DNA of 61,455 bases from a virus (taxonomy: Duplodnaviria > Caudoviricetes). The stretch covers positions 1-61,455 of the IMG/VR virus record IMGVR_UViG_3300032893_000045; one strand, given 5' to 3'. The notes below the pieces were generated by a model. That model made no database searches and was not told where the DNA came from. It saw only the letters and a program-made list of their open reading frames with translations. Shown here piece after piece: positions 9,212 through 52,721 of this stretch (positions within the stretch are counted from its first letter, which is position 1; the number at the start of each line of letters is the position of its first letter). The translations under genes were made by a program, and so were the position numbers.

Positions 9212-9622
9212 ATGGCGTGGCTCAGAGACTTCCGGTCGGGCACCTGGGAGAAGGTCAGGGGCGAGCTCTACCTGTTCCTTCAGGGCGTGCAGGAGAGCCT
9301 CGACGGCCGCAAGGGTTACACGAGCGAGCAGTACCAGGTCCGATCGGAGAAGGGTAAGGCGGGAGGCTACGCCAGCCTCGGCGGGGACGCCGCGGTCCTC
9401 GACATCCAGCTTCGCTCCCTCATCGGCGACACGGGCGCAGGCGGTCACCGCGGTCTCGTCCCGGCGCCGGTAGCCGGCGATGCGGCGGCGGGTCGGTTCC
9501 TCAAGGCGGACGCGACGTGGTCCGTCCCGGCCGGCGGCGGCGGCGGGTCACCCAACCTCGACGGCGGATTCCCCGATACCATCTACGGCGGCGTGACGCC
9601 GATTGACGGAGGGACGCCCTGA
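9212..9622 (+). CDS. Tail fibre adaptor / short fibre protein
   Basis: Fibre-type motifs EKGKAGGYASL and GLVPAPVAGDAAAGRFLKADATW; C-terminal LDGG..IDGG; coupled to the next gene. Confidence 0.65.
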   Translation: MAWLRDFRSGTWEKVRGELYLFLQGVQESLDGRKGYTSEQYQVRSEKGKAGGYASLGGDAAVLDIQLRSLIGDTGAGGHRGLVPAPVAGDAAAGRFLKADATWSVPAGGGGGSPNLDGGFPDTIYGGVTPIDGGTP

Positions 9623-17976: not shown

Positions 17977-17991
17977 TCGCACGCATGTCAA
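17977..17991 (-). promoter_or_regulatory. Shared motif TTGACATGCGTGCGA
   Basis: 14 bp identical to 49739-49752; 13/14 identical to 36630-36643. Confidence 0.6.
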
Positions 17992-18728
17992 GCGTCCGGA
18001 GTCCCTTTCGGGAAGCGCGCTAAGATCCTCGAGACGCTGCGGGTATGCCACCTGGACCCGCGGCACCGCACGCCCTGCCCGTTCAACACCTTGGCAATCG
18101 TCGGCGCCCGCAGCCCGCGCGAGGCCAGGTTCTCGATGAGCGCCAGCGTCCGCGCCTCGGCCGGATCCGGCTCCGTCCGGTAGCGCATCCGCCCGTCGCC
18201 GTCGCGTCCGGCCTCGCGCTTGGCGGAGCCGAACGGCGCCTCACCGCCCGCGTACTCGCCCCGGCGCCGCTTCACCGCCGCGGCCAGCGCCGTCCGAATC
18301 CCGATCATCGTGCGCTCGTAGTCGGCGACCGCATCAAGCAGCCGGCGGACGAGCTGGGCCTCGGGCGTGTTGCCGTTCGAGACGCCATCGGCCGCCGTGA
18401 GCTCGCCGCCGTTCTCCTTCACCGTTTGCTCGACGGCAGCAACCGCTACCGCATCGGCGCGGATGAAACGGTCCCGCTTCCAGACCAGGAGCCGGCCGGC
18501 GCCGAGCTCGCGCAGGTCACGAATCGCGCGCAGCAGCCGCGGCCGTTTCTCGATCGGCGTCGCGCCGGACACGCGCTCGACGCGCCAGCGCACGATGCGG
18601 ACTCCCTGCGTTCTGGCCCACGCGGCAATCTCGGCGCGCTGACCCTTCGGCCCGAGGTCTTGCTTGTTCGTGCTGACGCGGACGTAGGCGACCGCCCGCG
18701 CCAGGTCACCAGGTTTGCAGCGCCTCAC
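17988..18728 (-). CDS. Serine recombinase (resolvase/invertase catalytic domain plus short C-terminal DNA-binding region)
   Basis: AVAYVRVST..Q; ERVSGA..RPRL; LLVWKRDRF; GGEAPFG; IAKVLN..RW. Confidence 0.92.
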   Translation of the reverse strand: MRRCKPGDLARAVAYVRVSTNKQDLGPKGQRAEIAAWARTQGVRIVRWRVERVSGATPIEKRPRLLRAIRDLRELGAGRLLVWKRDRFIRADAVAVAAVEQTVKENGGELTAADGVSNGNTPEAQLVRRLLDAVADYERTMIGIRTALAAAVKRRRGEYAGGEAPFGSAKREAGRDGDGRMRYRTEPDPAEARTLALIENLASRGLRAPTIAKVLNGQGVRCRGSRWHTRSVSRILARFPKGTPDA

Positions 18729-22826: not shown

Positions 22827-22854
22827 AATCTAGGCAAGCCCGCGCGCGTGTCAA
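22827..22854 (-). promoter_or_regulatory. Sigma70-type promoter TTGACA-N16-TAGATT driving the small-gene cluster
   Basis: Read directly; lies about 40 nt upstream of the 22785 start. Confidence 0.7.
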
Positions 22855-36614: not shown

Positions 36615-36644
36615 ACTCTAGCGCCACCGTCGCGCGCATGTCAA
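36615..36644 (-). promoter_or_regulatory. Promoter TTGACA-N18-TAGAGT containing the shared motif
   Basis: Read directly; sits at the divergence point of the two arms. Confidence 0.7.
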
Positions 36645-41144: not shown

Positions 41145-42734
41145 ATGGCTGATCCGATCCGCGCCGACGAATACGCGCATCTCGTGAGCCCAGCGGCTCT
41201 CGCGGTTACGCTGACGCGCGGGTCCGCCCAGCCGTGGGTTCCGAGCAAGTACCACTGGCTCCTGAGCGACGAACTCGTCCGCCTCTACCGCCGAGAACCG
41301 GGCCAGCCGTCCATCCTCCTCGTCATGATGCCGCCCCAGCACGGGAAGAGCACGGAGACCTCCCAGTGGTTCCCCGCCTGGGCACTCGCTCTCGAACCTT
41401 CGACCCGGATCATCCTCTGTTCCTACGGACTCAACCTCGCGGCGAAGTTCGGCCGCGCGACTCGGCAAATAATCGAGACGAACTACCCGATGCTCGGCAC
41501 CTCCGTGCTCGAGGACTCGCGAGCGGCGCACCGCTGGGGGACGCGGGACGGCGGAGGGATGGAGTGCCGGGGCGTCGGCGGCGGCATCTCAGGCTTCGGC
41601 TTCGACATCGGCATCGTCGACGACCCGGTGAAGGACGCGCAGGACGCGCAGAGTCAGATCATCCGCGACAACCTCTGGGACTGGTGGCAGCAGGCGTTCC
41701 TGACCCGCCGTTCGCCAACGGCCATCATCGTCGTCGTCATGACCCGGTGGCACGAGGACGACCTGATCGGCCGCATCCTCCAGACCTCTCCCGAGAAGTG
41801 CCGCGTCCTCCGTCTACCGGCGCTCGCGGAGGAGGGAGATCCGCTCGGCCGGCTCCCCGGCGAGGGCCTCTGGCCGGAGCGCTACCCTCTGGACTTCTAC
41901 GAGGACGTCCGCCGGAAGAGCCCGCGGGTCTTCAACGCGCTCTACCAGCAGCGTCCGACGGCCCCCGAAGGATCCGGCATTCGGCGTGACTGGTGGCGCT
42001 ACTACACGGAGCGGCAGGACCCTTCGTCCTTCGACCGCATCATCCAGGTCTGGGATCCCACCTTCAAAGACGTCGACTCGAGCGACTTCGTCGCGGGCGG
42101 CGTCATCGGGATCCGGCGCGAGGACTCGTACCTGCTCGACGCGACGCACGCGCGACTGGACACGCCGAAGACGATCCGGGCGATCCAGGAGATGCGGCGC
42201 CGATGGCCGACCGCGAAACGGATCCTCATCGAGGAGACCGCGTCCGGGCCCGCGATCATCCAGCTTCTCCAGCATACCGTTCCTGGCATCCTGCCCGTCC
42301 GAACGGGCAACCGCTCGAAGGAGACGCGGCTCAACTGGGGCGTGAACTCCGTCTCGGGCTACATCGAGGCGGGTCACTTCTACCTGCCGCGCGAGATCCG
42401 CCCAGACGAGGAGGAGGCGATCGACCCTCCGGACCCGGGCCTCTGCGAGATCGCCCAGAAGCTCGTAAACGAGGCGGCCGCCTTCCCCTACGGCGAGCAC
42501 GACGACCTGGTCGACATGCTCGTCCACGGCGTCCAGCATCTCATGCCGGCCTCGTGGTCCGCGGCGCGTCGCGAGCAGAAGGCGCTGGCGCAGAACGAGC
42601 CCGTGGACCTCGTGGCCCTGCACCGGAAGCAGCTTCAGGACGCGATCACAAAGCGGATGGACGCTCTCTACGAGGACCGACGGCGAGCGCAGCGCGATCC
42701 GTCGCTGGGTCTCGCCGGCTGGAGCACCTACTGA
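41145..42734 (+). CDS. terL: Terminase large subunit
   Basis: Walker A MPPQHGKS; IVDDPVKD; VMTRWHEDDL; ALYQQRP; nuclease motifs WDP..SDF and FPYGEHDDLVD. Confidence 0.96.
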   Translation: MADPIRADEYAHLVSPAALAVTLTRGSAQPWVPSKYHWLLSDELVRLYRREPGQPSILLVMMPPQHGKSTETSQWFPAWALALEPSTRIILCSYGLNLAAKFGRATRQIIETNYPMLGTSVLEDSRAAHRWGTRDGGGMECRGVGGGISGFGFDIGIVDDPVKDAQDAQSQIIRDNLWDWWQQAFLTRRSPTAIIVVVMTRWHEDDLIGRILQTSPEKCRVLRLPALAEEGDPLGRLPGEGLWPERYPLDFYEDVRRKSPRVFNALYQQRPTAPEGSGIRRDWWRYYTERQDPSSFDRIIQVWDPTFKDVDSSDFVAGGVIGIRREDSYLLDATHARLDTPKTIRAIQEMRRRWPTAKRILIEETASGPAIIQLLQHTVPGILPVRTGNRSKETRLNWGVNSVSGYIEAGHFYLPREIRPDEEEAIDPPDPGLCEIAQKLVNEAAAFPYGEHDDLVDMLVHGVQHLMPASWSAARREQKALAQNEPVDLVALHRKQLQDAITKRMDALYEDRRRAQRDPSLGLAGWSTY

Positions 42735-43439: not shown

Positions 43440-46151
43440 ATGGAGACGGAGACCGCTCCGGTTCTGAGCGCGAACTGGCAGGACAACTCCATCCCAAGCC
43501 TGGAGGACCCCGAGGACAAGATCCGCAACTACATGCTGCGGATGATGAATCCGCTCTCGCCGAGGCGCCGCTGGCACACGCTGAAGGCCGCGCACCGCTC
43601 GTGGATGTACATGGGGAACCAGTGGATCGAGCCCAACTGGGGGCTGGCCCCCGGCAACGGCGCCTATCACTTCTTCGGCGTCCACAAGCGCGACACGCTG
43701 GCTGCGTTCAAGCGGCCGGTGATGAACATCACCCGCGTCGCGGTTCGCAACGAGGTCGCGCGGCTCGGAAAGAAGGAGTACGTCCCCGACGTGCTGGCTT
43801 CGCGGAACGTCCCTACCTGGGTCGCTGCCGCGCGTGCCGCCAAGGACATCCTCGTCTCGGAGGCGTACAGGCTCGCATGGGGAGAGAAACGGGAACAGGC
43901 GATCTTCAACTTCGTGGTCGACGGGACGCTGATCGTCAAGACCTACTGGGACGAGGTCCAGACGCAGACGGTCACGATCGGCAGTCCCGACGCGGTCTCC
44001 TGTCCCCAGTGCAACTTCCTGCTCGCAAGCGACGTCGTGCCGGCCTCTTTCCTCGCGGACGGCTTCCCCGGACCCGCCGGCCAGATGGTCCCGATCGCGC
44101 GCCCGGACACGGTCGAGCGTCCGGAGCCGGTCCCGGGCATGACCGCGGCGACGGTCCGTCTGCACACCTGCCCCCTCTGCGGCCAGCCGGTCCAGAAGTA
44201 CGACGTCAGTGAGGACGAGGCGGCGCAGCGGAAGGACTCGATCGGAAATCCGCTCGGGATGCCCGTGCCAAAGGGCGACAGCGCCCTCGACGTCGTCTCG
44301 ATGCACGAGTATTACCCAGAGAACGGCGGAGTCCACAAGGATCCGTACAATGCGAAGGTCCACCACCAACTCAGCGTCATGTCGATCGAGGACATCCTCG
44401 AGCGCTGGGGAGACGACCTCGACGAGGATCCCAACGCGGAGGATCCGTCGACCCTGATCCGGCTCGATCCGCTTTTCTCGGATCCGGCGCTGCTCCAGAA
44501 GCCGAGCGTCTACCAGTCCGTCGGCAACGAGGTCTTCGCGGCCCACGCTCGCGTCTGGGAGACGGTGGTCAAGCCGCAGCCGGGCGTCCCGGGGAAGGAG
44601 TTCGGGGCGCACTTTATCCGGATCGCCAACCAGAACCAGGTCATCTCGCGGCCGCTCTGCGTGCCGGCGACCGACGAGAACGGCAAGGAGGTGCTCGTCC
44701 CGCGCGTCGAGTACCACGTCGCCCGGTACTGGAAGGTCCCCGGCCACTTCTTCGGGACGAGCTTCGTCGAGGACCTCATCCCCACGAACCGGCGCATCAA
44801 CGAGATCATCGCGCAGGGCATGGACCTCCGTGAGCGCGGCAAGCCGAGCGTCTGGGTGCCGGAGGGAGTCGAGATCACGCTGCGGGATGACAAGGAGGGA
44901 TCGCTTCAGGTCATGGAGTACGACACCGGGGAGCATCCGGAGTGGAATCCGCGCGACGGCTTCCAGCCGGTCCCGGCCCTGACCGCGAGCCCCTACTACC
45001 AGGAGTACCAGCAATGCCTCGCGGACGCGCAGCTTCTCGGCGCTCCGCAGGACATCGAGATGGGCCAGCCGGCCGGCTCCGTGAAGACGACCTCGGGCCT
45101 GATGCTCATGTCGGACCAGGCACAGGAGAAGCGCGGCCCGATGGAGCGGGGACTCGTAGGCGTCTACGAGAGCGTCTTCCAACACCTGCTCATCATGACC
45201 AAGACCTTCCGGCAGGAGGAAGCAGCCTACGAGGTCCGCAACGACTCGGGGATCTTCGAGGAGAAGAGCTTCAGGGCGGAGACGCTTCAGGGTGCACGCC
45301 GGGTGCGGGTCACAACGAAACAGGGCGTCGACCAGCGGCTCTTCTTAAAGGAGGCGACGGCCGAGGCGATCGAGATGCAGCTCTACCAGATCAACACGCC
45401 GCTCGCCCGCGAGCAACTCCTCGAAAACATGAGCCTGCCGAAGATCGACGAGAAGCAGTCGGTCCAGATCGAGCGCGCCGAGATGGCTTGGTCCGACTTC
45501 GTCCAGACGGGAGCCGTCCCGATCATCGACACGCTCTTCGATCCGGCCGTCTGGTACGCGGTCCTGGGGGTCGCCTGGCTCGAGGACGAAGCGTATTCGA
45601 TGCAGCAGGCCGTCGGCTTCCCGAGCGTCATGGCCGCGCTCGACGGCTGGGAGGACACGTTCACCCAGATGCAGCAGACCGACCAAGCGCAACGGTCGAT
45701 CTACTCCAGCCAGCCGCCGGAGGCGTGGCAGGGGATCTACAACCAACTCGAGCAGATCCGGAAGGCCGCGAACGCGCACGCCCAGAAGGCGGCTCAACTG
45801 GCGATGCAGGCCGGGCAGCCTCCCGCGGCACCGCCGCAGCAGATCCCTCCGACGCCGCCGCCTCCCCAGAACGGCTTCCTGCCGAAGCCGCTCCAGCAGC
45901 GCATCCTGGCGTGCTGGATGAAGATCCTCGGGCCGCAGTTCGGTGACGCGCGCCTGGCCGTGGCCGTTTCGCAGCAGGTCGGGGTCCCGCTCGCGCCGGA
46001 GGGAGCGCGGATCCAGAAGCTCATGCCGCTGCTTCAGATGCGCGCCGTGATCGAAGCCTTCCGCATCCTCGCCCAAGAGCAGCAGGCCGCGGCGGCGCCG
46101 CCCGCCCCCGGTCCGCCCCAGACCAACGCCGCACCCCCGCCGCCGCAGTAG
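43440..46151 (+). CDS. Portal protein (P22-like) with Zn-ribbon insertion, 903 aa
   Basis: YMGNQW; N; DGTLIVKTYWD; FFGTSFVEDLIP..RIN; TTSG; Gln/Pro-rich tail; follows terL. Confidence 0.85.
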   Translation: METETAPVLSANWQDNSIPSLEDPEDKIRNYMLRMMNPLSPRRRWHTLKAAHRSWMYMGNQWIEPNWGLAPGNGAYHFFGVHKRDTLAAFKRPVMNITRVAVRNEVARLGKKEYVPDVLASRNVPTWVAAARAAKDILVSEAYRLAWGEKREQAIFNFVVDGTLIVKTYWDEVQTQTVTIGSPDAVSCPQCNFLLASDVVPASFLADGFPGPAGQMVPIARPDTVERPEPVPGMTAATVRLHTCPLCGQPVQKYDVSEDEAAQRKDSIGNPLGMPVPKGDSALDVVSMHEYYPENGGVHKDPYNAKVHHQLSVMSIEDILERWGDDLDEDPNAEDPSTLIRLDPLFSDPALLQKPSVYQSVGNEVFAAHARVWETVVKPQPGVPGKEFGAHFIRIANQNQVISRPLCVPATDENGKEVLVPRVEYHVARYWKVPGHFFGTSFVEDLIPTNRRINEIIAQGMDLRERGKPSVWVPEGVEITLRDDKEGSLQVMEYDTGEHPEWNPRDGFQPVPALTASPYYQEYQQCLADAQLLGAPQDIEMGQPAGSVKTTSGLMLMSDQAQEKRGPMERGLVGVYESVFQHLLIMTKTFRQEEAAYEVRNDSGIFEEKSFRAETLQGARRVRVTTKQGVDQRLFLKEATAEAIEMQLYQINTPLAREQLLENMSLPKIDEKQSVQIERAEMAWSDFVQTGAVPIIDTLFDPAVWYAVLGVAWLEDEAYSMQQAVGFPSVMAALDGWEDTFTQMQQTDQAQRSIYSSQPPEAWQGIYNQLEQIRKAANAHAQKAAQLAMQAGQPPAAPPQQIPPTPPPPQNGFLPKPLQQRILACWMKILGPQFGDARLAVAVSQQVGVPLAPEGARIQKLMPLLQMRAVIEAFRILAQEQQAAAAPPAPGPPQTNAAPPPPQ

Positions 46152-46160
46152 GAGGAGAGC

Positions 46161-46418
46161 ATGTTCGGACAGAAGAAGAAGCCGCAGCCCCCGCCGCAGG
46201 AGGAGCCGGACGAGGACGACGACAGGATGGATTCAGGCTCCAACCTCGCCACGGAGCCGCTTCCTCGGCCCCCGGCGATCGGCCAGCCTCGGCCCAAGCC
46301 GCCGCAGCACGCGATCATCGAGCCGGCCCCCGGATCGCTCCGGAAGGCGGCCGCCAAGCACAAGAGCCGGACGAAGGTCACGGCGGCGCAGCTTGCGGAG
46401 GCGATGTCGGAGCGGTAG
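46161..46418 (+). CDS. Small disordered protein with shared C-terminal motif
   Basis: AGGAG RBS; ends KVTAAQLAEAMSER. Confidence 0.65.
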   Translation: MFGQKKKPQPPPQEEPDEDDDRMDSGSNLATEPLPRPPAIGQPRPKPPQHAIIEPAPGSLRKAAAKHKSRTKVTAAQLAEAMSER

Positions 46419-46455
46419 AACGAGACCGCCGGGCCGACCCCGGCAGGAGGAAACG

Positions 46456-46776
46456 ATGGAGAGCATCTGGACGCCGCTGTGGGACAAGGTCATCGTGGAG
46501 CGCGAGGCCCCCGACGAGAAGCTCTCGAAGGAGGCCGACATCGTCGTTGCCGACGCCCACAAGCGCCGGAAGAACCGGGGGATCGTGCTCTCGACCGGCC
46601 CCGGCCGTCTGACGTCCAGCGGGGCGGTGGTGCCGCTGTACGTGAAGGTCGGGATGCAGGTGCTCTTCGGCGAGCATTCGGGCATCGACCTCGAGGAGAA
46701 GGACCACGTCATGCTGCGCGAGGACGAGATCCTCGCGTGCCGCGAGGTGGCCGCGGAGGAAGTCGCCGCGGCGTAG
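46456..46776 (+). CDS. groES: Co-chaperonin GroES-like
   Basis: PLWDKVIV..GIVLSTGPGR..PLYVKVGMQVLFGEHSG..MLREDEILA; AGGAGG RBS. Confidence 0.92.
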   Translation: MESIWTPLWDKVIVEREAPDEKLSKEADIVVADAHKRRKNRGIVLSTGPGRLTSSGAVVPLYVKVGMQVLFGEHSGIDLEEKDHVMLREDEILACREVAAEEVAAA

Positions 46777-46792
46777 AAACGGAGGCCGTTCC

Positions 46793-47011
46793 ATGCCGGG
46801 CATGAAGGCGACGATGGACGAGTGGAAGGCCGGGACGCTGCACAGCGGCAGCAAGACCGGCCCCGTCGTGACGAACCAGAAGCAGGCCGTCGCCATCGGG
46901 CTCAGCGAGGAGCGCAAGGCCGGCGGTGACGTTCCGCCTCCGCCGAAGAAGAAGCGGCAACCGCGCGTCACGGCTTCGCAGGCTGCGGACGCGCTGGCCG
47001 CGCGAGGCTGA
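46793..47011 (+). CDS. DUF6496-like small basic protein with shared C-terminal motif
   Basis: M.EWKAGTLHSGS..V.N.KQAVAIGLSE; ends RVTASQAADALAARG. Confidence 0.75.
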   Translation: MPGMKATMDEWKAGTLHSGSKTGPVVTNQKQAVAIGLSEERKAGGDVPPPPKKKRQPRVTASQAADALAARG

Positions 47012-47022
47012 AGGAGACTCCG

Positions 47023-47271
47023 ATGGCAGAGCACTGGATGAAAGAGGCGTTCGGGGAGAACCGGGGTGCGCTGCACCGCGAGCTCCACGTTCCGGAGGAC
47101 CAGCCGATCCCGGCGTCGAAGCTCCAGAAGGCCGAGCACTCGTCGAATCCGCTGCTGCGGAAGCGGGCGGTGGCGGGCGAGACCGGAGCGCGGATCGCGC
47201 GGGCCCACGCCCGCAAGCGCAGCAAGGCGACCGCGGCCCAGGCGGCGGACGCGATGGCGTCTCGAGGCTGA
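47023..47271 (+). CDS. Small basic phage protein with shared C-terminal motif
   Basis: W..A..GALHRELHVP..IPASKL.KA..KRA..ET; ends KATAAQAADAMASRG. Confidence 0.75.
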   Translation: MAEHWMKEAFGENRGALHRELHVPEDQPIPASKLQKAEHSSNPLLRKRAVAGETGARIARAHARKRSKATAAQAADAMASRG

Positions 47272-47272
47272 C

Positions 47273-47650
47273 GTGGACGCTGCCGCGCTCGCTGACGCGA
47301 TGGCTGATGCGGCTGGCAACCTGCGCTATGGGATGCCGACCTCCCAGAAGGAGGTCCTGGCAGCCGGCCGGCGCCTGCCGGGGGCGCCGATCGACAACTC
47401 CGCAGACCAGGACGTCGCGAACCGCTACGCCGCCGGCTACCTGTTCACCATGCAGCATCCGGACCTGGCACCCTACGTGATGCCCGTGGCGAACTTCCTC
47501 CACGGACTCTTCGGAGACGACCCGTCCGTCCAGAGCTACGCCCAGGAGGGCATGAACCGTGCGCTGGTCGACACACAGAACGCGAGACGGCAGGGGGTGC
47601 CGGCGGCGGCGGTCTACGCTTCGCTCGCAGCGGGGCTAGCCCCCAGGTAA
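47273..47650 (+). CDS. Hypothetical protein
   Basis: GTG start after GAGG; begins DAAALADAMADA. Confidence 0.55.
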   Translation: MDAAALADAMADAAGNLRYGMPTSQKEVLAAGRRLPGAPIDNSADQDVANRYAAGYLFTMQHPDLAPYVMPVANFLHGLFGDDPSVQSYAQEGMNRALVDTQNARRQGVPAAAVYASLAAGLAPR

Positions 47651-47663
47651 AGGAGCATTGAAG

Positions 47664-48854
47664 ATGAAGCGACTCTCGCTGTTGCTGCTGGCTCTGCTGG
47701 CGGCGGCGCCGCTCTGGGCTCAGACGGAGGTGCGGATCAACCGTCAGTCGAGATCGACGACGCTCCAGTCGGGCTACGACCTCAACGCGGCCGCCCAGAA
47801 CGACGCTCGGATCTTCGCCGACACGAACGTCGTCGCGTCGAACACCTACACGCTCTCAGGCCAGCCGGACGTGTGCCGGCTCCAGACGATCACGATCACG
47901 GACGCGAACTCGTCGATCACCGCCGGAATCGTCACGATCGTCGGCCTCGACTGCGTGGGCCGGGCGCGGACCTGCACGTTCGACTTCTCCGTCGTCGCCA
48001 CGCGCGGCTCCGGGGCGAAGGTGCTGACCTCGAACGGGCCCCTCGGCGCCGGATGCTACCTGTCCTCAGTGACGAGCGTCAGCGACGCCTCAATGACGGG
48101 CATCGACGCAGGGACCGACAAGATCCGCATGGGGGACTCGAGCACGGGCAACTTCCTCCAGTGGGCCACCTGGGGCCAGCTCCTACCTCCCGGCGCGTCC
48201 GGCGAGAACCGGGTCGACCCCTTCGGCCGCTACGATCCGCAGCCCGGCTACAACCTCATCACCACGGGAGGCGCAGCCTCGACCACCGTGACCGGCGTCT
48301 CCACGAACAACGCCTTCACGAACGTCCTCCAGGGCGACCTCATCACCTTCATAATCAACAACCAGCGCTACGAGCGCAAGGTGACGGCACGCGGCTCCGC
48401 CAACTCGATCACCATCTCGAGCCCGGCCGTGAAGATCCCCGCAGGAGGCGTGCCCTTCCAGTATGCCCACTGGTACGTGACCGCGGATCCGACGGACGAC
48501 TTCTCCGTTGACCTCACGGCGGGCTGGCGAGCGCTGGTCCTCACCTGGTCCGTGGACAACAACGTGGACACGGGCGGCGTCTACATGAAGCTCGAGTGCT
48601 CGACTGAGAGGACGCCGGCCTGGCCGACGGCTCCTTGGGTCGTGGTCCCATCGCGGACCTCGCCGATCACTTGTGACTCGAACGGATGCGCCGTCGCTTC
48701 AGCAGCCACACAGATCCCAGTGGAGGAGTCGGTCAACCTCGACCTCTCTCTCTTCTCGCGGTGCCGCGTTGGCTGGCGATTCGGGACAGCAGACGACGCG
48801 GACGGAGCAGGGAACACCGAGTCACTGAACGCCCAGATCACGCTCGGCCGGTAG
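47664..48854 (+). CDS. Secreted beta-rich protein with Sec signal peptide
   Basis: MKRLSLLLLALLAAAPLWA-Q; Thr/Gly/Ser-rich; 8 Cys in the mature part. Confidence 0.75.
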   Translation: MKRLSLLLLALLAAAPLWAQTEVRINRQSRSTTLQSGYDLNAAAQNDARIFADTNVVASNTYTLSGQPDVCRLQTITITDANSSITAGIVTIVGLDCVGRARTCTFDFSVVATRGSGAKVLTSNGPLGAGCYLSSVTSVSDASMTGIDAGTDKIRMGDSSTGNFLQWATWGQLLPPGASGENRVDPFGRYDPQPGYNLITTGGAASTTVTGVSTNNAFTNVLQGDLITFIINNQRYERKVTARGSANSITISSPAVKIPAGGVPFQYAHWYVTADPTDDFSVDLTAGWRALVLTWSVDNNVDTGGVYMKLECSTERTPAWPTAPWVVVPSRTSPITCDSNGCAVASAATQIPVEESVNLDLSLFSRCRVGWRFGTADDADGAGNTESLNAQITLGR

Positions 48855-48865
48855 GAGGGAAAGCG

Positions 48866-49405
48866 ATGCGACGAGTGCTCTTCGTCATCCTCGCCCTCCT
48901 GTCCACGCCCGCTTGGGCCCAGGTCTACACGTATCCATCGACAGGTGGATCGGGCGGCCTGGACCACTGGCCGAAGCCCCTCAATAAGCTCCAAGTCACG
49001 CTCTCGGCCGCCCAGATGGATAGCCTCTACTCCTCCCCCATCACTCTGCTGGCGGGTAAGTCGGGATACTTCTACGACGTCTTCCAGATGGTGATCGTCA
49101 AGGAAGACACGGTCGCCTTCTCCTCGGTGGGGCAGAATCTCACGCTCTCTTGGAATGCGAGTCCTGCTGTTTCCATCTTCACCTGGGCCGTTACGAGTTG
49201 GCTCACTTCGACGAACGTCGGCAGCGCTCGTTGGGGGCGCTTGGGCCAGCCCCAGTGGCAGATCGACGAGGCTGCGGCGAACCTTGGCGGGAAAGGACTC
49301 GTGCTCTCGCTTCCCACCGGAGACATGACGGGCGGAGGCCCCTGCACGGTCTACATCTGGTACTGGCAGGTTCCGGACACGAGCGCGGGACTGGCTGGGC
49401 TCTAG
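48866..49405 (+). CDS. Secreted beta-sandwich-like protein with Sec signal peptide
   Basis: MRRVLFVILALLSTPAWA-Q; GGAGGG RBS. Confidence 0.7.
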   Translation: MRRVLFVILALLSTPAWAQVYTYPSTGGSGGLDHWPKPLNKLQVTLSAAQMDSLYSSPITLLAGKSGYFYDVFQMVIVKEDTVAFSSVGQNLTLSWNASPAVSIFTWAVTSWLTSTNVGSARWGRLGQPQWQIDEAAANLGGKGLVLSLPTGDMTGGGPCTVYIWYWQVPDTSAGLAGL

Positions 49406-49725
49406 CGCACGCGCAGGTTCCGGACGGCGATCGCCCCGCCGACGACTCCGAAGCTCGCCGCCAGCCATCCGGCCGTCCGCCCATGCCCGCGCCTCCGCAG
49501 CGCGTGGCACCCGTAACCCACGGCGCCGGCCACCGCCAGCTTCGCGAACGGAGAGCCCAGCACGGGATTCGCTTCCCGGCAGCCCGCGCAGCGGTTGAGC
49601 ACGTAGTACGTGCTCCCCAGATCCGCCGCCTGACCTCCCAGGATCAGCGTCCAGTTGAGCCCCTCGCCCGCTACGGCGGGCGCGGCCAGAGCCGTCAGAA
49701 GCAGCACGGTCAAGATCCTCTTCAT
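49402..49725 (-). CDS. Small exported/membrane protein, antisense to the structural operon
   Basis: Signal-like N-terminus; AADLGSTYY..CREANP motif; shared promoter motif upstream. Confidence 0.7.
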   Translation of the reverse strand: MKRILTVLLLTALAAPAVAGEGLNWTLILGGQAADLGSTYYVLNRCAGCREANPVLGSPFAKLAVAGAVGYGCHALRRRGHGRTAGWLAASFGVVGGAIAVRNLRVR

Positions 49726-49738
49726 GCGCGGTAGCTTC

Positions 49739-49803
49739 TCGCACGCATGTCATCCGGGTCAAGCGGAAAACGCTTGACAGGGGTCCGAGGACGGGCGCAG
49801 GAT
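49739..49803. promoter_or_regulatory. Divergent promoter pair with palindromic -35 boxes
   Basis: GTCAAGCG-gaaaa-CGCTTGAC (49758-49778); rightward TTGACA-N18-CAGGAT; shared motif at 49739-49752. Confidence 0.65.
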
Positions 49804-49809
49804 GGCCGG

Positions 49810-50290
49810 CGTTCGTCGGCCGGACAGACGAACGGCCCGGGAGACCGGAGGATCAACCCGGGCCGGAGTGCCTGCTGGGGTCACAGCAGGGCGTGGGAGG
49901 ACATTTTCCCACACCAAGCTGGACCCTGCAAGGAGAGAACGGGGACCTCTTTGGGTCTGGCTGCGACAACTCGGCGAGCAGAAACCGTCCAGGGGCTCCG
50001 CGCCCAGCAGCACGCGGACCTCCTGCGCGCGAGGCAAGAGAGGGAGACCCCCCAGCCCGCGCACCGCGAAACCCTCCCTATACCGGAAGTTCGGAGCCTT
50101 CTTTGCCTTGAAGGCGCTGAGCCGGGGACTCGTGCCGGCGCTCGTGCGTGGGCTCGGGGCTGGGCTGGGCTCGGGGCTGACAGGAACCGTCTCACCGACT
50201 GAACTTCCGGGTAGGGCTGGGAGGAGCGGGGGGCGGGGGGTCGGTGTGCCAAGGAGACAACGTATAGCGCAGGAGGCTGCTTCGACCCCA
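49810..50290 (+). ncRNA. Candidate large structured non-coding RNA
   Basis: At least 9 complementary segment pairs found by eye; upstream promoter; no credible ORF. Confidence 0.6.
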
Positions 50291-50295
50291 ATTCC

Positions 50296-50324
50296 TTGAC
50301 ACGCTACCGAAGGTAACGCATCAT
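50296..50324 (+). promoter_or_regulatory. Promoter TTGACA-N17-CATCAT for the scaffold/capsid operon, with palindromic spacer
   Basis: The spacer CGCTACC-GAA-GGTAACG is a near-perfect inverted repeat. Confidence 0.65.
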
Positions 50325-50368
50325 GCAGCCGTCCGAAGCGGGCGCCGCCCGCCCGCAGGAGGCGCACG

Positions 50369-51430
50369 ATGTCAGACGCACCAGTGGCCGACGCGGTCCC
50401 AGCCGAACCGACGGAACCCGTCGAGCCCACCGAGCCGCCCTCGGGAGAAGGAGAACCGGAGCCGGCGCCGCCCGCCGAGCCTGGCGAAGACGAGCCTCAA
50501 GACCTGAAGGACCTCCGAGCGAAGTACCCCGGGGAAGACGACGCGAAGCTGTTGCGGCGCCTGGCCCCCTCGTACTGGGAGCAGACGAGAGAAATCTCCC
50601 GACTCCACAAGGAACGCAGCGACTCGACGGTCGAGGAGCTACGCAACCGCGTGAAGGAGCTCGAGGCTCGAACGGCGCCGCCCGCCGACAAGAACGAGCC
50701 ACCCCCTCCAGAGATCCAGAGACTCGAGCAGGAGATCACGAGCCTCACGCAGGAACGCGACGGCCTGTACCAGCAGCAGGCGGCCGCCCTCCAGCAACTC
50801 ACCGAGACGAACGTCAAGATCGAGCGGCTGAAGGGGCAGGTCGAGTCGCCGCACACGCCCGAGGACGAGAAGCCGCACATCCAGCGGAGCATCGACGCCC
50901 TCGAAGCGCGATACGCGGCCATCTACGCGCAATGGCAGAGCTCCGGCCTCGACGCGAAGCGGACCCAGCGCGAACTGAGCCATCTCGTGAACGAACGAGA
51001 CTGGACGAAGCAGGTCGTCACCGAGCGCGCGGCCAGGCAAAAGCAGGAGCAGGAGCAGGCCCAGACCGACCTCAAGGCGGTCGTGGCGGACGTAGACGCG
51101 CAGATCGCAAAGACCGTGACGGACCTGAAATTCGGGGACTTGGCGGACGACGCCAAGGAGTACATCTTCACCAAGGTCACGAACGACTTCCGGAAGCTCG
51201 GGAACACCCCGGTCGGCGACATCGACGTGGAGGGCCTCGTCAGGCAACACGCCGAGAAGTACGCCAAGATCAGCCGCCTCGAAGCCCGTCGCGACTTCGC
51301 CAAGAGAAGCGAGAACAAGGCTGCGGTCTCCGGCCGCCCAGGCGCGCCGGCCCCGCGCTCCGCTCCCCCGAAGCCGCCACTAGACCAGATGGCGAGGGCG
51401 AGAAAGGCCCTCGAAGCGAAGGGGTGGTAG
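50369..51430 (+). CDS. Capsid scaffolding protein
   Basis: Acidic Pro/Glu N-terminus and long coiled coil; directly upstream of the capsid gene. Confidence 0.8.
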   Translation: MSDAPVADAVPAEPTEPVEPTEPPSGEGEPEPAPPAEPGEDEPQDLKDLRAKYPGEDDAKLLRRLAPSYWEQTREISRLHKERSDSTVEELRNRVKELEARTAPPADKNEPPPPEIQRLEQEITSLTQERDGLYQQQAAALQQLTETNVKIERLKGQVESPHTPEDEKPHIQRSIDALEARYAAIYAQWQSSGLDAKRTQRELSHLVNERDWTKQVVTERAARQKQEQEQAQTDLKAVVADVDAQIAKTVTDLKFGDLADDAKEYIFTKVTNDFRKLGNTPVGDIDVEGLVRQHAEKYAKISRLEARRDFAKRSENKAAVSGRPGAPAPRSAPPKPPLDQMARARKALEAKGW

Positions 51431-51449: not shown

Positions 51450-52721
51450 ATGACCACGGGCGCCATCGAGGACATCAGCGCCGAGTTGAAGACGCAGTAC
51501 CCGCCGGGGACGTTCGAGGAGCCGGTCAACAAGAACGCCCCGTACCGCAAGAGCCTCCAGAACGTGAACCTCGTCGTGCGCGAGGGCTACACCGCCGTGG
51601 TGCCCCTCGGCGTGGCGAGCGCCTGGAACGTCGCCTCGCCGGCAGACGCCGGCCCGGCCCAGGCCCCGATCGACCCGACCCGCGTGCAGGGCACGGTGAA
51701 CCCGGAGCTCTTCGTCGGTTCGTTCCAGATCGGCGTCAAGACGAAGAACATGGCGACCTCGGGGAAGAGCACGTTCAACCCCGGGGGCATCCTGCCCGAC
51801 CGCGTCGAGTCGACCGTGGCGGACCTCGGCAAGTACATCGAGGAGGTCTACGTCGGCTCCAACCGCGGCCGCCTCGCGATCGTCGCGACCAACCCCGGCG
51901 CGAACCAGTTCACCTGCGACGTGCCGATGCTCGATCTGCTGCTCCACAAGAACAAGCGGATCATGGCCTTCGACGCGCTCCAGTCCGGCAACTACCGGGG
52001 CTCGAGCGCGGCCGACGGACGGAAGATCACGGTCCTCGACCGCTCGACCCACACCGTCACCTACGACGGTGCCGACATGGGCGCGGTGGCCCCGGGCGAC
52101 TCGATCTTCATCCAGGGCACCTACGGCCGGACCCACTGGTCCCTGCGGGACATCGTGGACGACGGCACGCTCTGCCTGACGATCTACGGGCAGTCGCGGA
52201 ACACCTACCCCGAGCTCAAGGCGTTCGTCCAGAACGGCTCCGCGGGCTACCGGGACCTCAACGAGGCCCTGATCCTGGACATCATCGCGAACATCGCTCG
52301 CGAGACCGGCCAGAAGGTCACGCGGGCCCTCGCCAACGACGGCCAGGGCCGCAAGTACGTGGAGTTCATCCAGGCCGAGCGCCGCTACATGGGCCCGACC
52401 GGCTCCGACGTCAAGTACACGATCGGCTACAAGGACGGCTCGCTGAAGATCCTGGCGCCGGGCGTGGACGTCGACCTCGAGGCGGCGCCGGACGCGGAGC
52501 CGGGCGCGATCTTCTTCCTGACCTGGTCCACCTTCGGCCGCTACGAAGGCATGTCGATGGACTGGATCGACGACGACGCGCTCCTGCACCTGATCCCCGG
52601 CACCTCCGTGCACTCGATGGGCTTCCTGGCCTACGTGGGCTCGATCGAGAACCAGATCAACACGATGCCCCGAGCCAACGGCAAGCTCGGCAGCCTCAAC
52701 GACCCGATCCTGGGCACGTAG
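51450..52721 (+). CDS. Major capsid protein, 423 aa
   Basis: Position after the scaffold; strongly biased codons; size; LK..Y, IYG.SR.TYP and PRANGKL motifs. Confidence 0.85.
   Translation: MTTGAIEDISAELKTQYPPGTFEEPVNKNAPYRKSLQNVNLVVREGYTAVVPLGVASAWNVASPADAGPAQAPIDPTRVQGTVNPELFVGSFQIGVKTKNMATSGKSTFNPGGILPDRVESTVADLGKYIEEVYVGSNRGRLAIVATNPGANQFTCDVPMLDLLLHKNKRIMAFDALQSGNYRGSSAADGRKITVLDRSTHTVTYDGADMGAVAPGDSIFIQGTYGRTHWSLRDIVDDGTLCLTIYGQSRNTYPELKAFVQNGSAGYRDLNEALILDIIANIARETGQKVTRALANDGQGRKYVEFIQAERRYMGPTGSDVKYTIGYKDGSLKILAPGVDVDLEAAPDAEPGAIFFLTWSTFGRYEGMSMDWIDDDALLHLIPGTSVHSMGFLAYVGSIENQINTMPRANGKLGSLNDPILGT

What the first reader, a model, noticed from the sequence alone, without database searches (positions are those of the whole stretch)
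49810..50290. Highly structured ~480-nt non-coding RNA candidate upstream of the scaffold and capsid genes
Seen: after a TTGACA-N18-CAGGAT promoter, pairing starts at about the expected +1. Local stems are 49810-17/49827-34, 49835-41/49857-63, 49871-77/49884-90, 49893-98/49907-12, 49919-24/49987-92 and 49997-50002/50013-18. A nested ~260-nt rod follows: 50019-28/50267-76 (10 bp), 50046-53/50235-42 (8 bp) and 50083-92/50201-10 (10 bp). TGGGGTC (49876-82, mostly a hairpin loop) is complementary to GACCCCA (50284-90) at the 3' end, a possible pseudoknot or switch. The element stops just before the next promoter. I do not recognise it as tRNA, tmRNA, 6S, SRP RNA or an intron. Inference: an independent RNA gene in the head-assembly module, possibly a packaging or assembly RNA, an RNA polymerase decoy or an anti-defence RNA.
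Basis: partly seen in the sequence, partly recalled or inferred. Interest (0 to 1): 0.82.

Follow-up and report, generated by a model that had tools for sequence, protein, structure and literature searches.

The report
Conserved structured RNA before phage scaffold gene
A roughly 490-base non-coding stretch just upstream of the scaffold and capsid genes of an uncultured wetland phage folds into a stable rod-like RNA that two related phages also carry in the same place, so it is probably a new phage RNA element whose function is still unknown.

Summary
The + strand folds far better than shuffles (z -4.49), and 17 other 481-nt windows of the same genome do not (mean z 0.20, minimum -1.60).

The window is a complete 61.5-kb phage genome with terminal repeats. 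The element fills the gap between a minus-strand cargo gene and the scaffold gene.

Two related metagenomic phages, L012 and L019, carry a homologous element at the same position. They share a TTGACA-N18 promoter-like site in front, a 5'-terminal hairpin and a ~200-nt rod. The rod keeps its helices through changes on both strands.

No reading frame is conserved, and there is no Rfam match. Twenty other relatives put a GroES-like gene directly before the scaffold gene and lack the element.

My best reading is a new structured phage RNA made from its own promoter. I put a stand-alone ncRNA at about 0.45 and a cis-acting leader or insulator of the scaffold-capsid operon at about 0.35. No transcript data exist, only three copies are known, and the function is unknown.

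The parts
49774..49803 (+). P1, promoter-like site: -35 TTGACA (49774-79), 18-nt spacer, -10-like CAGGAT (49798-803)
   Evidence: Sequence read. CTTGACAG is invariant in the 3-way alignment. L012 has TTGACA-N18-TAGTCT and L019 has TTGACA-N18-TAGAGT at the same place. Only L019's P1 passes the tool's consensus scan; the window's and L012's -10 match 3 of 6. There are only 6 TTGACA in the whole genome, on both strands.
49810..49834 (+). 5'-terminal hairpin HP1 (CGUUCGUC/GACGAACG, 8 bp), starting at about +1 of P1
   Evidence: L012 (3377-81/3393-97) and L019 have a hairpin at the same place with a different stem sequence.
49833..49865 (+). Hairpin HP2 (CGGCCCGGG/CCCGGGCCG, 9 bp)
   Evidence: I10. 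L012 (3401-30) and L019 (1013-43) have a GC-rich hairpin in second position whose inner stem differs between them on both arms.
49866..50018 (+). Variable 5' domain. Holds hairpins 49871-90 and 49893-912 and the 49940-50000 stem. Its last ~40 nt (AAACCG...GCCCAGC) can be aligned with the homologues.
50019..50028 (+). 5' arm of the outer closing stem (CCUCCUGCGC). It is also complementary to the scaffold Shine-Dalgarno region (50350-62, 12 of 13).
   Evidence: (I8 and I6).
50035..50043 (+). Invariant, mostly unpaired CAAGAGAGG motif just 5' of the rod
   Evidence: Invariant. Unpaired in the MFE. Occurs once in the genome.
50046..50242 (+). Conserved rod domain. Helices: R1 50046-53/50235-42; R3 50064-67/50226-29; R4 50072-81/50211-21; R5 50083-94/50199-210.
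   Evidence: R1, R4 and R5 are fully paired in all 3 phages, with 6 pairs changed on both sides. Native arms give -12.7 to -13.2 kcal/mol against -6.2 to -8.1 for chimeric arms.
50096..50198 (+). Branched tip of the rod (hairpins 50096-50115, 50116-50170, 50171-50198). Variable in length and sequence. Includes the 14-nt repeat TGGGCUCGGGGCUG twice.
   Evidence: D2. The first tip hairpin is present in all 3 with a quite different sequence in L019.
50267..50276 (+). 3' arm of the outer closing stem (GCGCAGGAGG). 50268-77 is an exact 10-nt copy of the scaffold ribosome-binding region 50354-63.
   Evidence: I8, D7.
50296..50324 (+). P2, promoter-like site of the scaffold gene (TTGACA-17-CATCAT)
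   Evidence: 10 of 12; shuffles give 0.0. Homologous sites TTGACA-18-GAGAAT in L012 and TTGACA-18-CAGAAT in L019 and L020. Similar TTGACG-N18-nACACT sites occur in relatives without the element (read by eye).
50303..50368 (+). Short scaffold leader: GCUACCGAAGGUAAC hairpin, a GC-rich stretch, then the AGGAGG ribosome-binding site
   Evidence: The GTTACnnnnnGTAAC hairpin and the GC hairpin next to the GGAGG are conserved across the family, including phages that lack the element.
49802..50299 (+). ORF of 165 codons: not a gene
   Evidence: No Pfam or PHROG match. No tblastn match in any relative. All six frames are open here. Peptide similarity to the homologues is short and appears in all frames. 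Indels are not multiples of three. Absent from the list of ORFs with GC3 above 0.8.
49402..49725 (-). Neighbouring cargo gene (107 aa, hydrophobic), diverging from P1
   Evidence: No homologue in any related locus.
50369..51430 (+). Scaffold-like gene (353 aa, acidic and coiled), directly before the capsid gene
   Evidence: Named from position and composition only; it has no family match.
51450..52721 (+). Major capsid protein gene
   Evidence: phrog_14242 major head protein, E 1.7e-18.

Best explanation
The gap 49726-50368 holds a real, conserved, non-coding structured RNA element. It is about 490 nt here and 400-425 nt in two related phages, and it is read from the + strand.

Host RNA polymerase would start at P1 (TTGACA-N18-CAGGAT, 49774-49803). 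The RNA opens with 5'-terminal hairpins. Its conserved core is a ~200-nt bulged rod (50046-50242) closed by GACCCCCC/GGGGGGUC. The rod has an invariant CCGGAAG/CUUCCGG helix, a branched variable tip, and an invariant unpaired CAAGAGAGG at its foot. The element ends about 20 nt before the scaffold gene's own promoter P2.

Shown: the structure, its conservation through compensatory changes, the lack of a conserved frame, and the conserved flanking promoter-like sites.

Inferred, at about 0.45: the element is a stand-alone RNA product that works through its fold, as a protein-binding scaffold or decoy. On this reading it is not the working leader of the scaffold mRNA. The scaffold gene has its own promoter and short leader, which relatives without the element also have. 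Transcripts that read through from P1 are also predicted to have the scaffold ribosome-binding site masked.

I put the more modest claim, that this is a functional structured RNA element of some kind, at about 0.85.
For: Structure beyond chance:
- z -4.49 for the whole element and -3.34 for the rod.
- Genome background: mean z 0.20, minimum -1.60, in 17 windows.
- The homologues also fold better than shuffles: L019 z -3.01, L012 z -1.95.

Strand. In all 3 phages the + strand beats the - strand. The - strand z values are -3.68 (window, whole element), -1.64 (window rod), -0.56 (L019) and -0.94 (L012).

Homology:
- L012 and L019 hold alignable elements directly upstream of their scaffold genes. 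nhmmer E-values are 1e-60 to 1e-65 and the covariance model scores 158-223 bits.
- The capsid proteins are only 62-64% identical and the scaffold proteins about 27-31%.
- Core nucleotide identity of 0.71-0.77 is similar to the capsid gene and above the scaffold gene.

Covariation:
- Helices R1 (8 bp), R4a (3), R4b (4) and R5 (7) are fully paired in all 3 phages.
- One pair in R1 changes C-G to U-A in L019. Five of the 7 R4 pairs differ on both sides between the window and L012/L019.
- Native R4 arms give -12.7 to -13.2 kcal/mol, chimeric arms -6.2 to -8.1.
- RNAalifold finds 23 of 89 pairs with a change on both sides.
- On the model-fitted alignment 84.8% of cells are paired, against 68% or less when the 3' partners are slid.

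Not coding:
- No family match and no tblastn match.
- Short similarities appear in all six frames.
- Every frame is open in this GC-rich DNA.

Promoters:
- The -35 CTTGACAG is invariant and the spacer is 18 nt in all 3.
- The same TTGACA-N18-TAGAGT architecture occurs at another promoter-like site of this genome, at 36639 on the - strand.
- P2 passes the consensus scan in 3 of 3 phages and P1 in 1 of 3.

Stand-alone reading:
- 20 of 20 other loci where both genes are visible have the GroES-like gene, then a 75-230-nt gap, then the scaffold gene. Read by eye, many of these gaps show promoter-like sites and the same short leader, without the element.
- In predicted folds the scaffold GGAGG has an unpaired probability of 0.00-0.11 in P1 read-through transcripts. 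In P2-initiated transcripts it is 0.22-0.47 (transcription start sites guessed).
Against: - No transcript evidence of any kind.
- No intrinsic terminator-like site on the + strand between P1 and the scaffold gene in any of the 3 phages. Read-through into the scaffold gene, which would make the element a leader, is quite possible.
- Only 3 copies are known, and they amount to two lineages, because L012 and L019 share the same R4 and R5 sequences.
- The formal covariation count on the model-fitted alignment is modest: 3 pairs changed on both sides, and 18 of 500 shuffles reach the observed values. That alignment is out of register by 1 nt for some 3' arms. The stronger pair table rests on my own coordinate matching.
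- The window's and L012's P1 -10 hexamers match the consensus at only 3 of 6 positions.
- The ribosome-binding-site masking argument depends on guessed start sites and on thermodynamic folding.
- Single-stranded DNA parameters also give a significant fold (z -3.17 on +, -2.68 on -). A DNA-level role is therefore not excluded by folding alone.
- No partner, target or phenotype is known.
Confidence: 0.45

Rival explanations
1. Cis-acting structured leader or insulator of the scaffold-capsid operon. Transcripts from P1, or from the cargo upstream, run through the element into the scaffold and capsid genes. The rod would serve as a processing site (for example for a double-strand-specific RNase), a stabiliser or a pause/attenuation site. 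It would uncouple capsid-gene expression from the variable cargo inserted upstream. In the window, the anti-SD (50019-31), SD copy (50268-77) and SD (50354-63) triad would act as a translational switch.
For: - The element always sits immediately upstream of the scaffold gene, on the same strand.
- No terminator-like site separates it from the scaffold gene in 3 of 3 phages.
- It is found only in the 3 phages where cargo separates the GroES-like gene from the scaffold gene: 3.6 kb in the window and about 8.6 kb in L012's contig.
- Relatives without cargo have a long GC-rich hairpin at the equivalent place.
- In the window, a 13-nt stretch is 92% complementary to the scaffold SD region. An exact 10-nt copy of that region pairs with the stretch inside the element.
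- A 5'-terminal hairpin is typical of mRNA stabilisers (recalled).
Against: - The scaffold gene has its own promoter-like site P2 downstream of the element in 3 of 3 phages. P2 transcripts would lack the element.
- The anti-SD/SD-copy triad is inside the element only in the window. In L012 and L019 the anti-SD lies at P2 itself.
- 20 relatives express the same genes without the element.
- It is unclear why a promoter would be conserved directly in front of a pure insulator.
Confidence: 0.35
2. Relic of a palindromic mobile element (MITE-like), or another DNA-level structure. It would have inserted at the scaffold promoter in the common ancestor of the three phages, duplicating the TTGACAG target. 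The fold would be a by-product of inverted repeats.
For: - The element is flanked by direct repeats: TTGACA(G) in all 3 phages and an 11-nt TTGACAGCCGG in L012.
- Its core is a long imperfect inverted repeat (I1).
- The fold is also significant with DNA parameters.
- It lies at a hot spot of cargo insertion.
Against: - There is one copy in the phage genome. No other copy turned up among the 28 loci searched with the covariance model. The sequence profile found none in any fetched locus, and the model found none in 4 whole relatives' records.
- No consistent terminal inverted repeats lie next to the direct repeats in L012 or L019 (by eye).
- 170-200 nt of the element lie outside the palindrome.
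- The helices are kept by compensatory changes, and the core is conserved about as well as the capsid gene. A neutral relic would not show this at such divergence.
- The + strand folds better than the - strand in 3 of 3 phages.
Confidence: 0.08
3. A small protein is encoded, either ORF 49802-50299 or another frame.
For: - A 165-codon ORF spans the element.
- GC at its third codon positions is raised to 0.80-0.84 between about 49960 and 50230.
Against: - No Pfam or PHROG hit.
- No tblastn hit in about 60 related loci.
- All six frames are open in all 3 elements. Short peptide matches occur in every frame with similar scores.
- L012 has a stop inside the conserved GCCTTGAAGG block in its long frame.
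- Alignment gaps of 1, 2, 3, 7 and 11 nt break any frame.
- Differences cluster in the helix arms rather than at every third base.
Confidence: 0.03

Closest known systems
Short constitutive late-promoter transcript of lambdoid phages (lambda '6S' RNA; StxS of Stx2 phages; PMC7547250, search listing and start of abstract seen, the rest recalled)
   Same: A host-type promoter fires into a short, structured, non-coding stretch placed in front of late or structural genes. The by-product RNA can act in trans.
   Different: - That RNA is far shorter (size recalled), ends at a strong terminator and depends on a Q antiterminator.
- Here no terminator-like site was found.
- No Q-family protein is present in the complete genome.
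- The element is about 490 nt, and a second promoter follows it.
GOLLD and ROOL large ornate RNAs, often in phages and prophages (PMC12286853, search listing and start of abstract seen)
   Same: Large, highly structured, non-coding RNAs of unknown function carried by phage genomes.
   Different: - No match to any Rfam model, which includes these families.
- Different size and architecture: a rod plus hairpins.
- No tRNA genes nearby.
- Oligomer formation was not tested.
6S RNA and Ms1, rod-shaped RNAs that bind RNA polymerase (recalled)
   Same: A long bulged rod, made from its own promoter.
   Different: - No Rfam 6S match at E up to 10.
- The rod here has a branched tip and no evident large central bubble.
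- There is an extra ~200-nt 5' domain.
- Binding to RNA polymerase was not tested.
phi29 packaging RNA (pRNA) (recalled)
   Same: A phage-encoded structured RNA linked by position to head genes.
   Different: - No Rfam match.
- This phage has a standard large terminase with ATPase and nuclease domains, unlike phi29-type packaging.
- The element is absent from 20 relatives with the same head genes.
RNase III-processed hairpins between genes of T7, and the lambda N leader (recalled)
   Same: Long imperfect duplexes in non-coding stretches ahead of highly expressed genes. They can affect stability and translation of the downstream message.
   Different: - Those are about 60-200 nt and lie inside known transcripts.
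- Processing could not be tested here.
- This element has its own promoter-like site.

Membership tests
Any Rfam family (6S, pRNA, GOLLD, ROOL, tmRNA, SRP, RNase P, introns, riboswitches, phage motifs) | Score at or above the family's covariance-model threshold | tested here: not met
   0 matches at gathering score in the whole window. At E up to 10 in 49500-50600 there are only two weak CRISPR-repeat-like hits at 49654-87, outside the element. L012 and L019 have nothing in the element at E up to 1. ARAGORN finds no tRNA or tmRNA.
Lambdoid PR'-tR' short late transcript (lambda 6S / StxS type) | Intrinsic terminator closing the short transcript | tested here: not met
   No + strand terminator-like site in the window, L012 or L019. 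Terminators without a U-tract would be missed by this scan.
Lambdoid PR'-tR' short late transcript (lambda 6S / StxS type) | Q-type antiterminator encoded by the phage | tested here: not met
   PF06530 and PF03589 have no match in the complete genome. Unrelated antiterminators are not excluded.
Lambdoid PR'-tR' short late transcript (lambda 6S / StxS type) | Promoter directly in front of a non-coding stretch that precedes late genes | tested here: met
   P1 is conserved in 3 of 3 phages. It passes the consensus scan in 1 of 3.
phi29-type pRNA | phi29-like packaging system, and an RNA of about 120-175 nt with interlocking loops | tested here: not met
   A T4-type large terminase is present (Terminase_6N and Terminase_6C). 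The element is 400-490 nt. There is no Rfam hit. Loop-loop pairing was not tested.
6S RNA / Ms1 | Binding to RNA polymerase through a rod with an open-promoter-like bubble | not testable with these tools
   Only the rod shape can be seen. No Rfam match.
CsrB/RsmZ-type CsrA sponge | Many GGA motifs presented in hairpin loops, conserved among homologues | tested here: not met
   GGA counts are 20 against 10.7 expected in the window, but 12 against 11.0 in L012 and 16 against 12.9 in L019. Most lie in stems.
MITE or other palindromic mobile-element relic | Multiple dispersed copies, terminal inverted repeats and a target-site duplication | tested here: inconclusive
   Single copy in the phage. 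No copy elsewhere in the loci or in 4 relatives' records. Direct repeats TTGACA(G) flank it, but they are also the -35 boxes. No consistent terminal inverted repeats. Host genomes could not be searched because the host is unknown.
Protein-coding gene | A reading frame conserved among homologues | tested here: not met
   (see the rival explanations).

The most novel reading that the evidence does not exclude
This is the founding member of a new class of large (0.4-0.5 kb), promoter-equipped, rod-shaped phage RNAs that act in trans. It could be a structural cofactor or timer of capsid assembly next to the scaffold gene, or a decoy for a host protein (RNA polymerase, an RNase or a defence sensor). 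It may be expressed even from the prophage, since one relative's record is classed as a provirus and this genome carries a serine recombinase.
Probability: 0.2. Interest if true: 0.8.

Novelty: new variant of a known kind. Interest (0 to 1): 0.55.

Why it matters
Large structured RNAs in phages are rare, and most have no known function. Each new family with real covariation is a lead to new RNA biology: protein decoys, assembly cofactors or unusual gene control.

This one has a clear architecture:
- a promoter,
- a 5' hairpin,
- a conserved rod with an invariant single-stranded motif.

It also sits at a defined place, the junction between a fast-changing cargo region and the scaffold-capsid operon. 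That makes it directly testable with reporter constructs and end mapping, even without the natural host.

It also shows how these phages keep capsid-gene expression separate from inserted cargo, using a dedicated promoter and a masked ribosome-binding site. If the element turns out to be only a leader or insulator, it is a tidy but ordinary example of phage gene control.

Tried and rejected
Functional ideas tested and dropped:
- CsrA-sponge idea. GGA motifs are enriched only in the window, not in L012 or L019, and mostly lie in stems.
- Antisense target for the invariant CAAGAGAGG. Its complement, with up to 1 mismatch, occurs 6 times in the genome against 17.6 expected, none at a start region. 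The motif itself occurs once.
- Pseudoknot TGGGGTC/GACCCCA. The complementarity is real, but there is no counterpart in L012 or L019.

Searches for more copies:
- Four DNA-motif scans of viral contigs gave 6, 10, 14 and 7 stretches. Each time only L012's contig was a true relative; the rest showed no extended similarity.
- blastn of the element against 50,697 phage records gave no match.
- The capsid protein against the same records gave one weak hit at 22% identity.
- Protein-guided scans gave 11 and 18 viral loci, 19 metagenome loci and 2 genome loci. The element was found in L012 and L019 only. L036 holds just the last 48 nt at a contig end.
- Covariance model R1 over 28 loci and 4 whole relatives' records gave only noise at or below 11 bits. 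L019's record is not held and was not searched.

Expression:
- No RNA holder was listed among the public runs.
- The contigs of the three DNA runs laid on 49300-51000 showed no differing letters. In two of the runs one contig spans the whole stretch without a difference. They therefore gave no variation to use.

Alignment:
- The formal pair count needed a structure-aware alignment. MAFFT and the model-fitted alignment stay 1 nt out of register on some 3' arms. I therefore also matched helices by coordinates.

Literature:
- One full-text search on structured or non-coding RNA with phage scaffolding genes listed nothing relevant.
- Two further searches only supplied references for the comparisons.

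Tool status:
- Searches failed on mistyped coordinates and were corrected.
Full report
**What is there**

The window is a complete 61,455-bp virus record with direct terminal repeats and 69% G+C. It encodes:
- a large terminase at 41145-42734;
- a large portal-like protein at 43440-46151;
- a major capsid protein at 51450-52721 (phrog_14242, E 1.7e-18);
- a 2403-aa internal virion protein and a tail-fibre-like protein;
- a serine recombinase.

The finding lies in the 643-nt gap 49726-50368. This gap separates a minus-strand 107-codon gene (49402-49725) from the acidic, coiled 353-codon gene that directly precedes the capsid gene (50369-51430). I call that gene the scaffold gene from position and composition only, because it has no family match. 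No ORF in the gap passes a codon-position G+C filter that recovers the neighbouring genes. Third-position G+C periodicity is lost across the gap, apart from a weak rise at 49960-50230.

**Check of the observation**

TTGACA, 18 nt and CAGGAT sit at 49774-49803.

Fold statistics, RNA parameters unless stated:

| Stretch | Strand | z |
|---|---|---|
| 49810-50290 | + | -4.49 (-255.5 kcal/mol; 0 of 100 shuffles as good) |
| 49810-50290 | - | -3.68 |
| Rod 50030-50262 | + | -3.34 |
| Rod 50030-50262 | - | -1.64 |
| 49810-50290, DNA parameters | + | -3.17 |
| 49810-50290, DNA parameters | - | -2.68 |

Seventeen other 481-nt windows spread over the first 41 kb of the genome give z from -1.60 to +4.00, with a mean of 0.20. 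The element is therefore an outlier in its own genome.

**Not a known RNA and not a protein**

- Rfam gives nothing at gathering score in the whole window.
- At E up to 10 there is nothing in the element. The only hits are two weak CRISPR-repeat-like matches inside the 107-codon gene.
- The two homologues have nothing in the element at E up to 1.
- ARAGORN finds no tRNA or tmRNA.
- ORF 49802-50299 and the long minus-strand ORF have no Pfam or PHROG match. They have no tblastn match in any related locus.
- In this GC-rich DNA all six frames are open across the element in all three phages.
- Peptide similarities between the three elements are short and occur in every frame with similar scores.
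- Alignment gaps of 1, 2, 3, 7 and 11 nt break any frame.

**Relatives**

Capsid-guided scans gave 11 and 18 loci in viral contigs, 19 in metagenome contigs and 2 in genome contigs. Many of these are the same contigs seen twice.

Two of them carry an element homologous to the window's, directly upstream of the scaffold gene:
- L012, an IMG/VR contig, at about 3372-3771;
- L019, a metagenome contig, at about 985-1406.

A third locus, L036, holds only the last 48 nt at a contig end. A sequence profile and a covariance model over 28 loci find no other copy. The model also finds none in four whole records of relatives, one of them a complete 66.8-kb genome.

In 20 of 20 other loci where both genes are visible, a Cpn10/GroES-like gene lies 75-230 nt before the scaffold gene. 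Its homologue in the window is 46393-46776 (PF00166, E 3.6e-16).

In the three element-bearing phages this junction is filled with unrelated cargo. There are 3.6 kb in the window: DUF6496, small genes, two secreted proteins and the minus-strand gene. There are about 8.6 kb in L012's contig, with a LamG-domain protein, a lipoprotein and a Cys-rich protein. The cargo differs completely between the phages, but the element does not.

**Conservation of structure**

The three elements share four things:
- the promoter-like site;
- a 5'-terminal hairpin and a second GC-rich hairpin, whose stem sequences differ;
- an alignable stretch leading to an invariant, mostly unpaired CAAGAGAGG;
- a rod.

Independent MFE folds of all three predict the same rod helices. 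I matched helices by their position relative to invariant blocks. R1 (8 bp), R4a (3), R4b (4) and R5 (7) are then fully paired in all three phages. One R1 pair is C-G in two phages and U-A in L019. Five of the seven R4 pairs differ on both sides between the window and L012/L019.

The variable segments that form R4 pair well with their own partner (-12.7 to -13.2 kcal/mol). They pair poorly with the partner from the other lineage (-6.2 to -8.1). The first hairpin of the tip is kept with an unrelated sequence in L019. RNAalifold on a MAFFT alignment reports 89 pairs, 23 of them with a change on both sides.

The formal count on the model-fitted alignment is weaker:
- 84.8% of cells are paired, against 68% or less for slid partners.
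- Three pairs change on both sides.
- 18 of 500 shuffles reach the observed values.

That alignment remains one base out of register on some 3' arms, so I regard it as a lower bound. With three sequences, which amount to two lineages, the statistics cannot be strong.

Nucleotide identity of the rod core is 0.71-0.77 over aligned pairs. This is similar to the capsid gene (0.73-0.82) and above the scaffold gene (0.65-0.67). Such global identities are inflated in GC-rich DNA.

**Strand, start and end**

The + strand folds better than the - strand, relative to shuffles, in all three phages. This is expected if G-U pairs matter, that is, for an RNA read from the + strand.

The -35 box CTTGACAG is invariant and the spacer is 18 nt in all three. 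The -10-like hexamers are CAGGAT, TAGTCT and TAGAGT. Only L019's passes the tool's consensus threshold. The genome has only six TTGACA on both strands. Two of the others look like the same kind of promoter: N18-TAGAGT at 36639 and N16-TAGATT at 22849, both on the - strand.

A second promoter-like site, P2, follows the element in all three and passes the scan in all three. After P2 comes a short leader (a GTTAC...GTAAC hairpin, a GC-rich hairpin and GGAGG). Relatives without the element have this leader too, and read by eye many of them also have TTGACG-N18-nACACT sites. No + strand terminator-like site lies between P1 and the scaffold gene in any of the three.

**Ribosome-binding site**

In the window, 50019-31 is 92% complementary over 13 nt to the scaffold SD region. 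It is perfectly complementary to 50267-76, which contains an exact 10-nt copy of that region.

In L012 and L019 an anti-SD of 7-8 nt lies just downstream of the P2 -10 box.

In predicted folds the scaffold GGAGG is paired in P1 read-through transcripts (unpaired probability 0.00-0.11). It is more open in transcripts that start at P2 (0.22-0.47). The start sites in that calculation are my guesses, so this is inference.

**Interpretation**

I am confident, at about 0.85, that this is a functional structured RNA element and not chance, a gene or a neutral relic. What it does is not shown.

I favour a stand-alone RNA made from P1 (about 0.45), for three reasons:
- P1 and the 5'-terminal hairpin are conserved.
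- The scaffold gene has its own promoter and leader, which suffice in 20 relatives.
- Read-through transcripts look translationally masked.

The main rival is a cis-acting leader, processing site or insulator that separates capsid-gene expression from the cargo (about 0.35). It is favoured by the constant position, the lack of a terminator and the link with cargo. The two readings are not exclusive, as lambdoid late-promoter transcripts show.

A mobile-element or DNA-level relic gets about 0.08, and a small protein about 0.03.

**Comparison with known systems**

- It works most like the short late-promoter transcripts of lambdoid phages (PMC7547250; listing and start of abstract seen). It fails that family's tests, with no terminator found and no Q-type protein.
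- It also resembles the large orphan RNAs of phages, GOLLD and ROOL (PMC12286853; listing and start of abstract seen). It has no model match to them.
- 6S/Ms1, phi29 pRNA and RNase III sites are looser analogies, recalled from memory.

I file it as a new family within the known kind 'structured non-coding RNA of phages'.

**Limits**

- There are no RNA data.
- The host is unknown. Two distant relatives lie in Planctomycetota MAGs, and one related record is classed as a provirus.
- Only three copies are known.

Noticed in passing
window 46393-46776: A phage-encoded Cpn10/GroES-like co-chaperonin (PF00166, E 3.6e-16). In 20 related loci its homologue sits directly before the scaffold and capsid genes, which suggests chaperonin-assisted capsid folding in this family.
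   Followed up: partly
window 46777-49725; L012 1-3346 and further upstream in its contig: The junction between the GroES-like gene and the scaffold gene is a hot spot for unrelated cargo. The window has 3.6 kb: DUF6496, small genes, two signal-peptide proteins and a minus-strand membrane protein. L012's contig has about 8.6 kb: a LamG-domain protein, a lipoprotein and a Cys-rich protein. No cargo protein is shared between the phages.
   Followed up: partly
related loci, e.g. L003 3720-3790, L006 3700-3760, L030 1290-1340, L008 3650-3700: In relatives without the element, the GroES-like gene is followed by a long GC-rich hairpin. Its 5' arm is G-rich, and the loop often reads (G)TCTGTCTGG or TTTCTGG. 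It lies just before the scaffold promoter and leader. It could be a terminator without a U-tract or a processing site (read by eye).
   Followed up: no
window 50019-50031, 50268-50277, 50354-50363: An anti-SD, SD-copy and SD triad. CGCAGGAGGC occurs twice exactly, once inside the element and once as the scaffold ribosome-binding region. Both are complementary to 50019-31. In L012 and L019 the anti-SD sits at the P2 -10/+1 region instead.
   Followed up: partly
window 17986, 22849, 29763, 36639, 49774, 50296: There are only six TTGACA in 61 kb on both strands. At least four are followed at 16-18 nt by an nAGnnT-type hexamer (TAGATT, TAGAGT, CAGGAT) or by CATCAT. They look like the phage's host-type promoters.
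   Followed up: partly
window 17988-18728 (-); related record G003: A serine recombinase or integrase (phrog_95, E 1.2e-35). One related IMG/VR record is classed as a provirus. The family is probably temperate.
   Followed up: no
window 1999-9210 and 9622-12153: A 2403-aa protein with an internal-virion-protein domain, and an 843-aa protein with a T7-type tail-fibre N-terminal domain. This points to a podovirus-like virion.
   Followed up: no
window 50149-50179: The 14-nt unit TGGGCTCGGGGCTG occurs twice, 17 nt apart, in the variable tip of the rod (D2). L012 keeps GGGCTGGGCTCGG there.
   Followed up: no
window 49654-49687 (-): Weak CRISPR-repeat-like Rfam hits (21 and 19 bits, far below threshold) on a GC hairpin inside the 107-codon gene. 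Most likely chance.
   Followed up: no
L020 1-100: In a close relative whose contig ends 163 nt before the scaffold gene, a canonical hairpin plus T-run terminator lies directly before the scaffold promoter. The hosts of this group can therefore use standard intrinsic terminators, which the element lacks (by eye).
   Followed up: no
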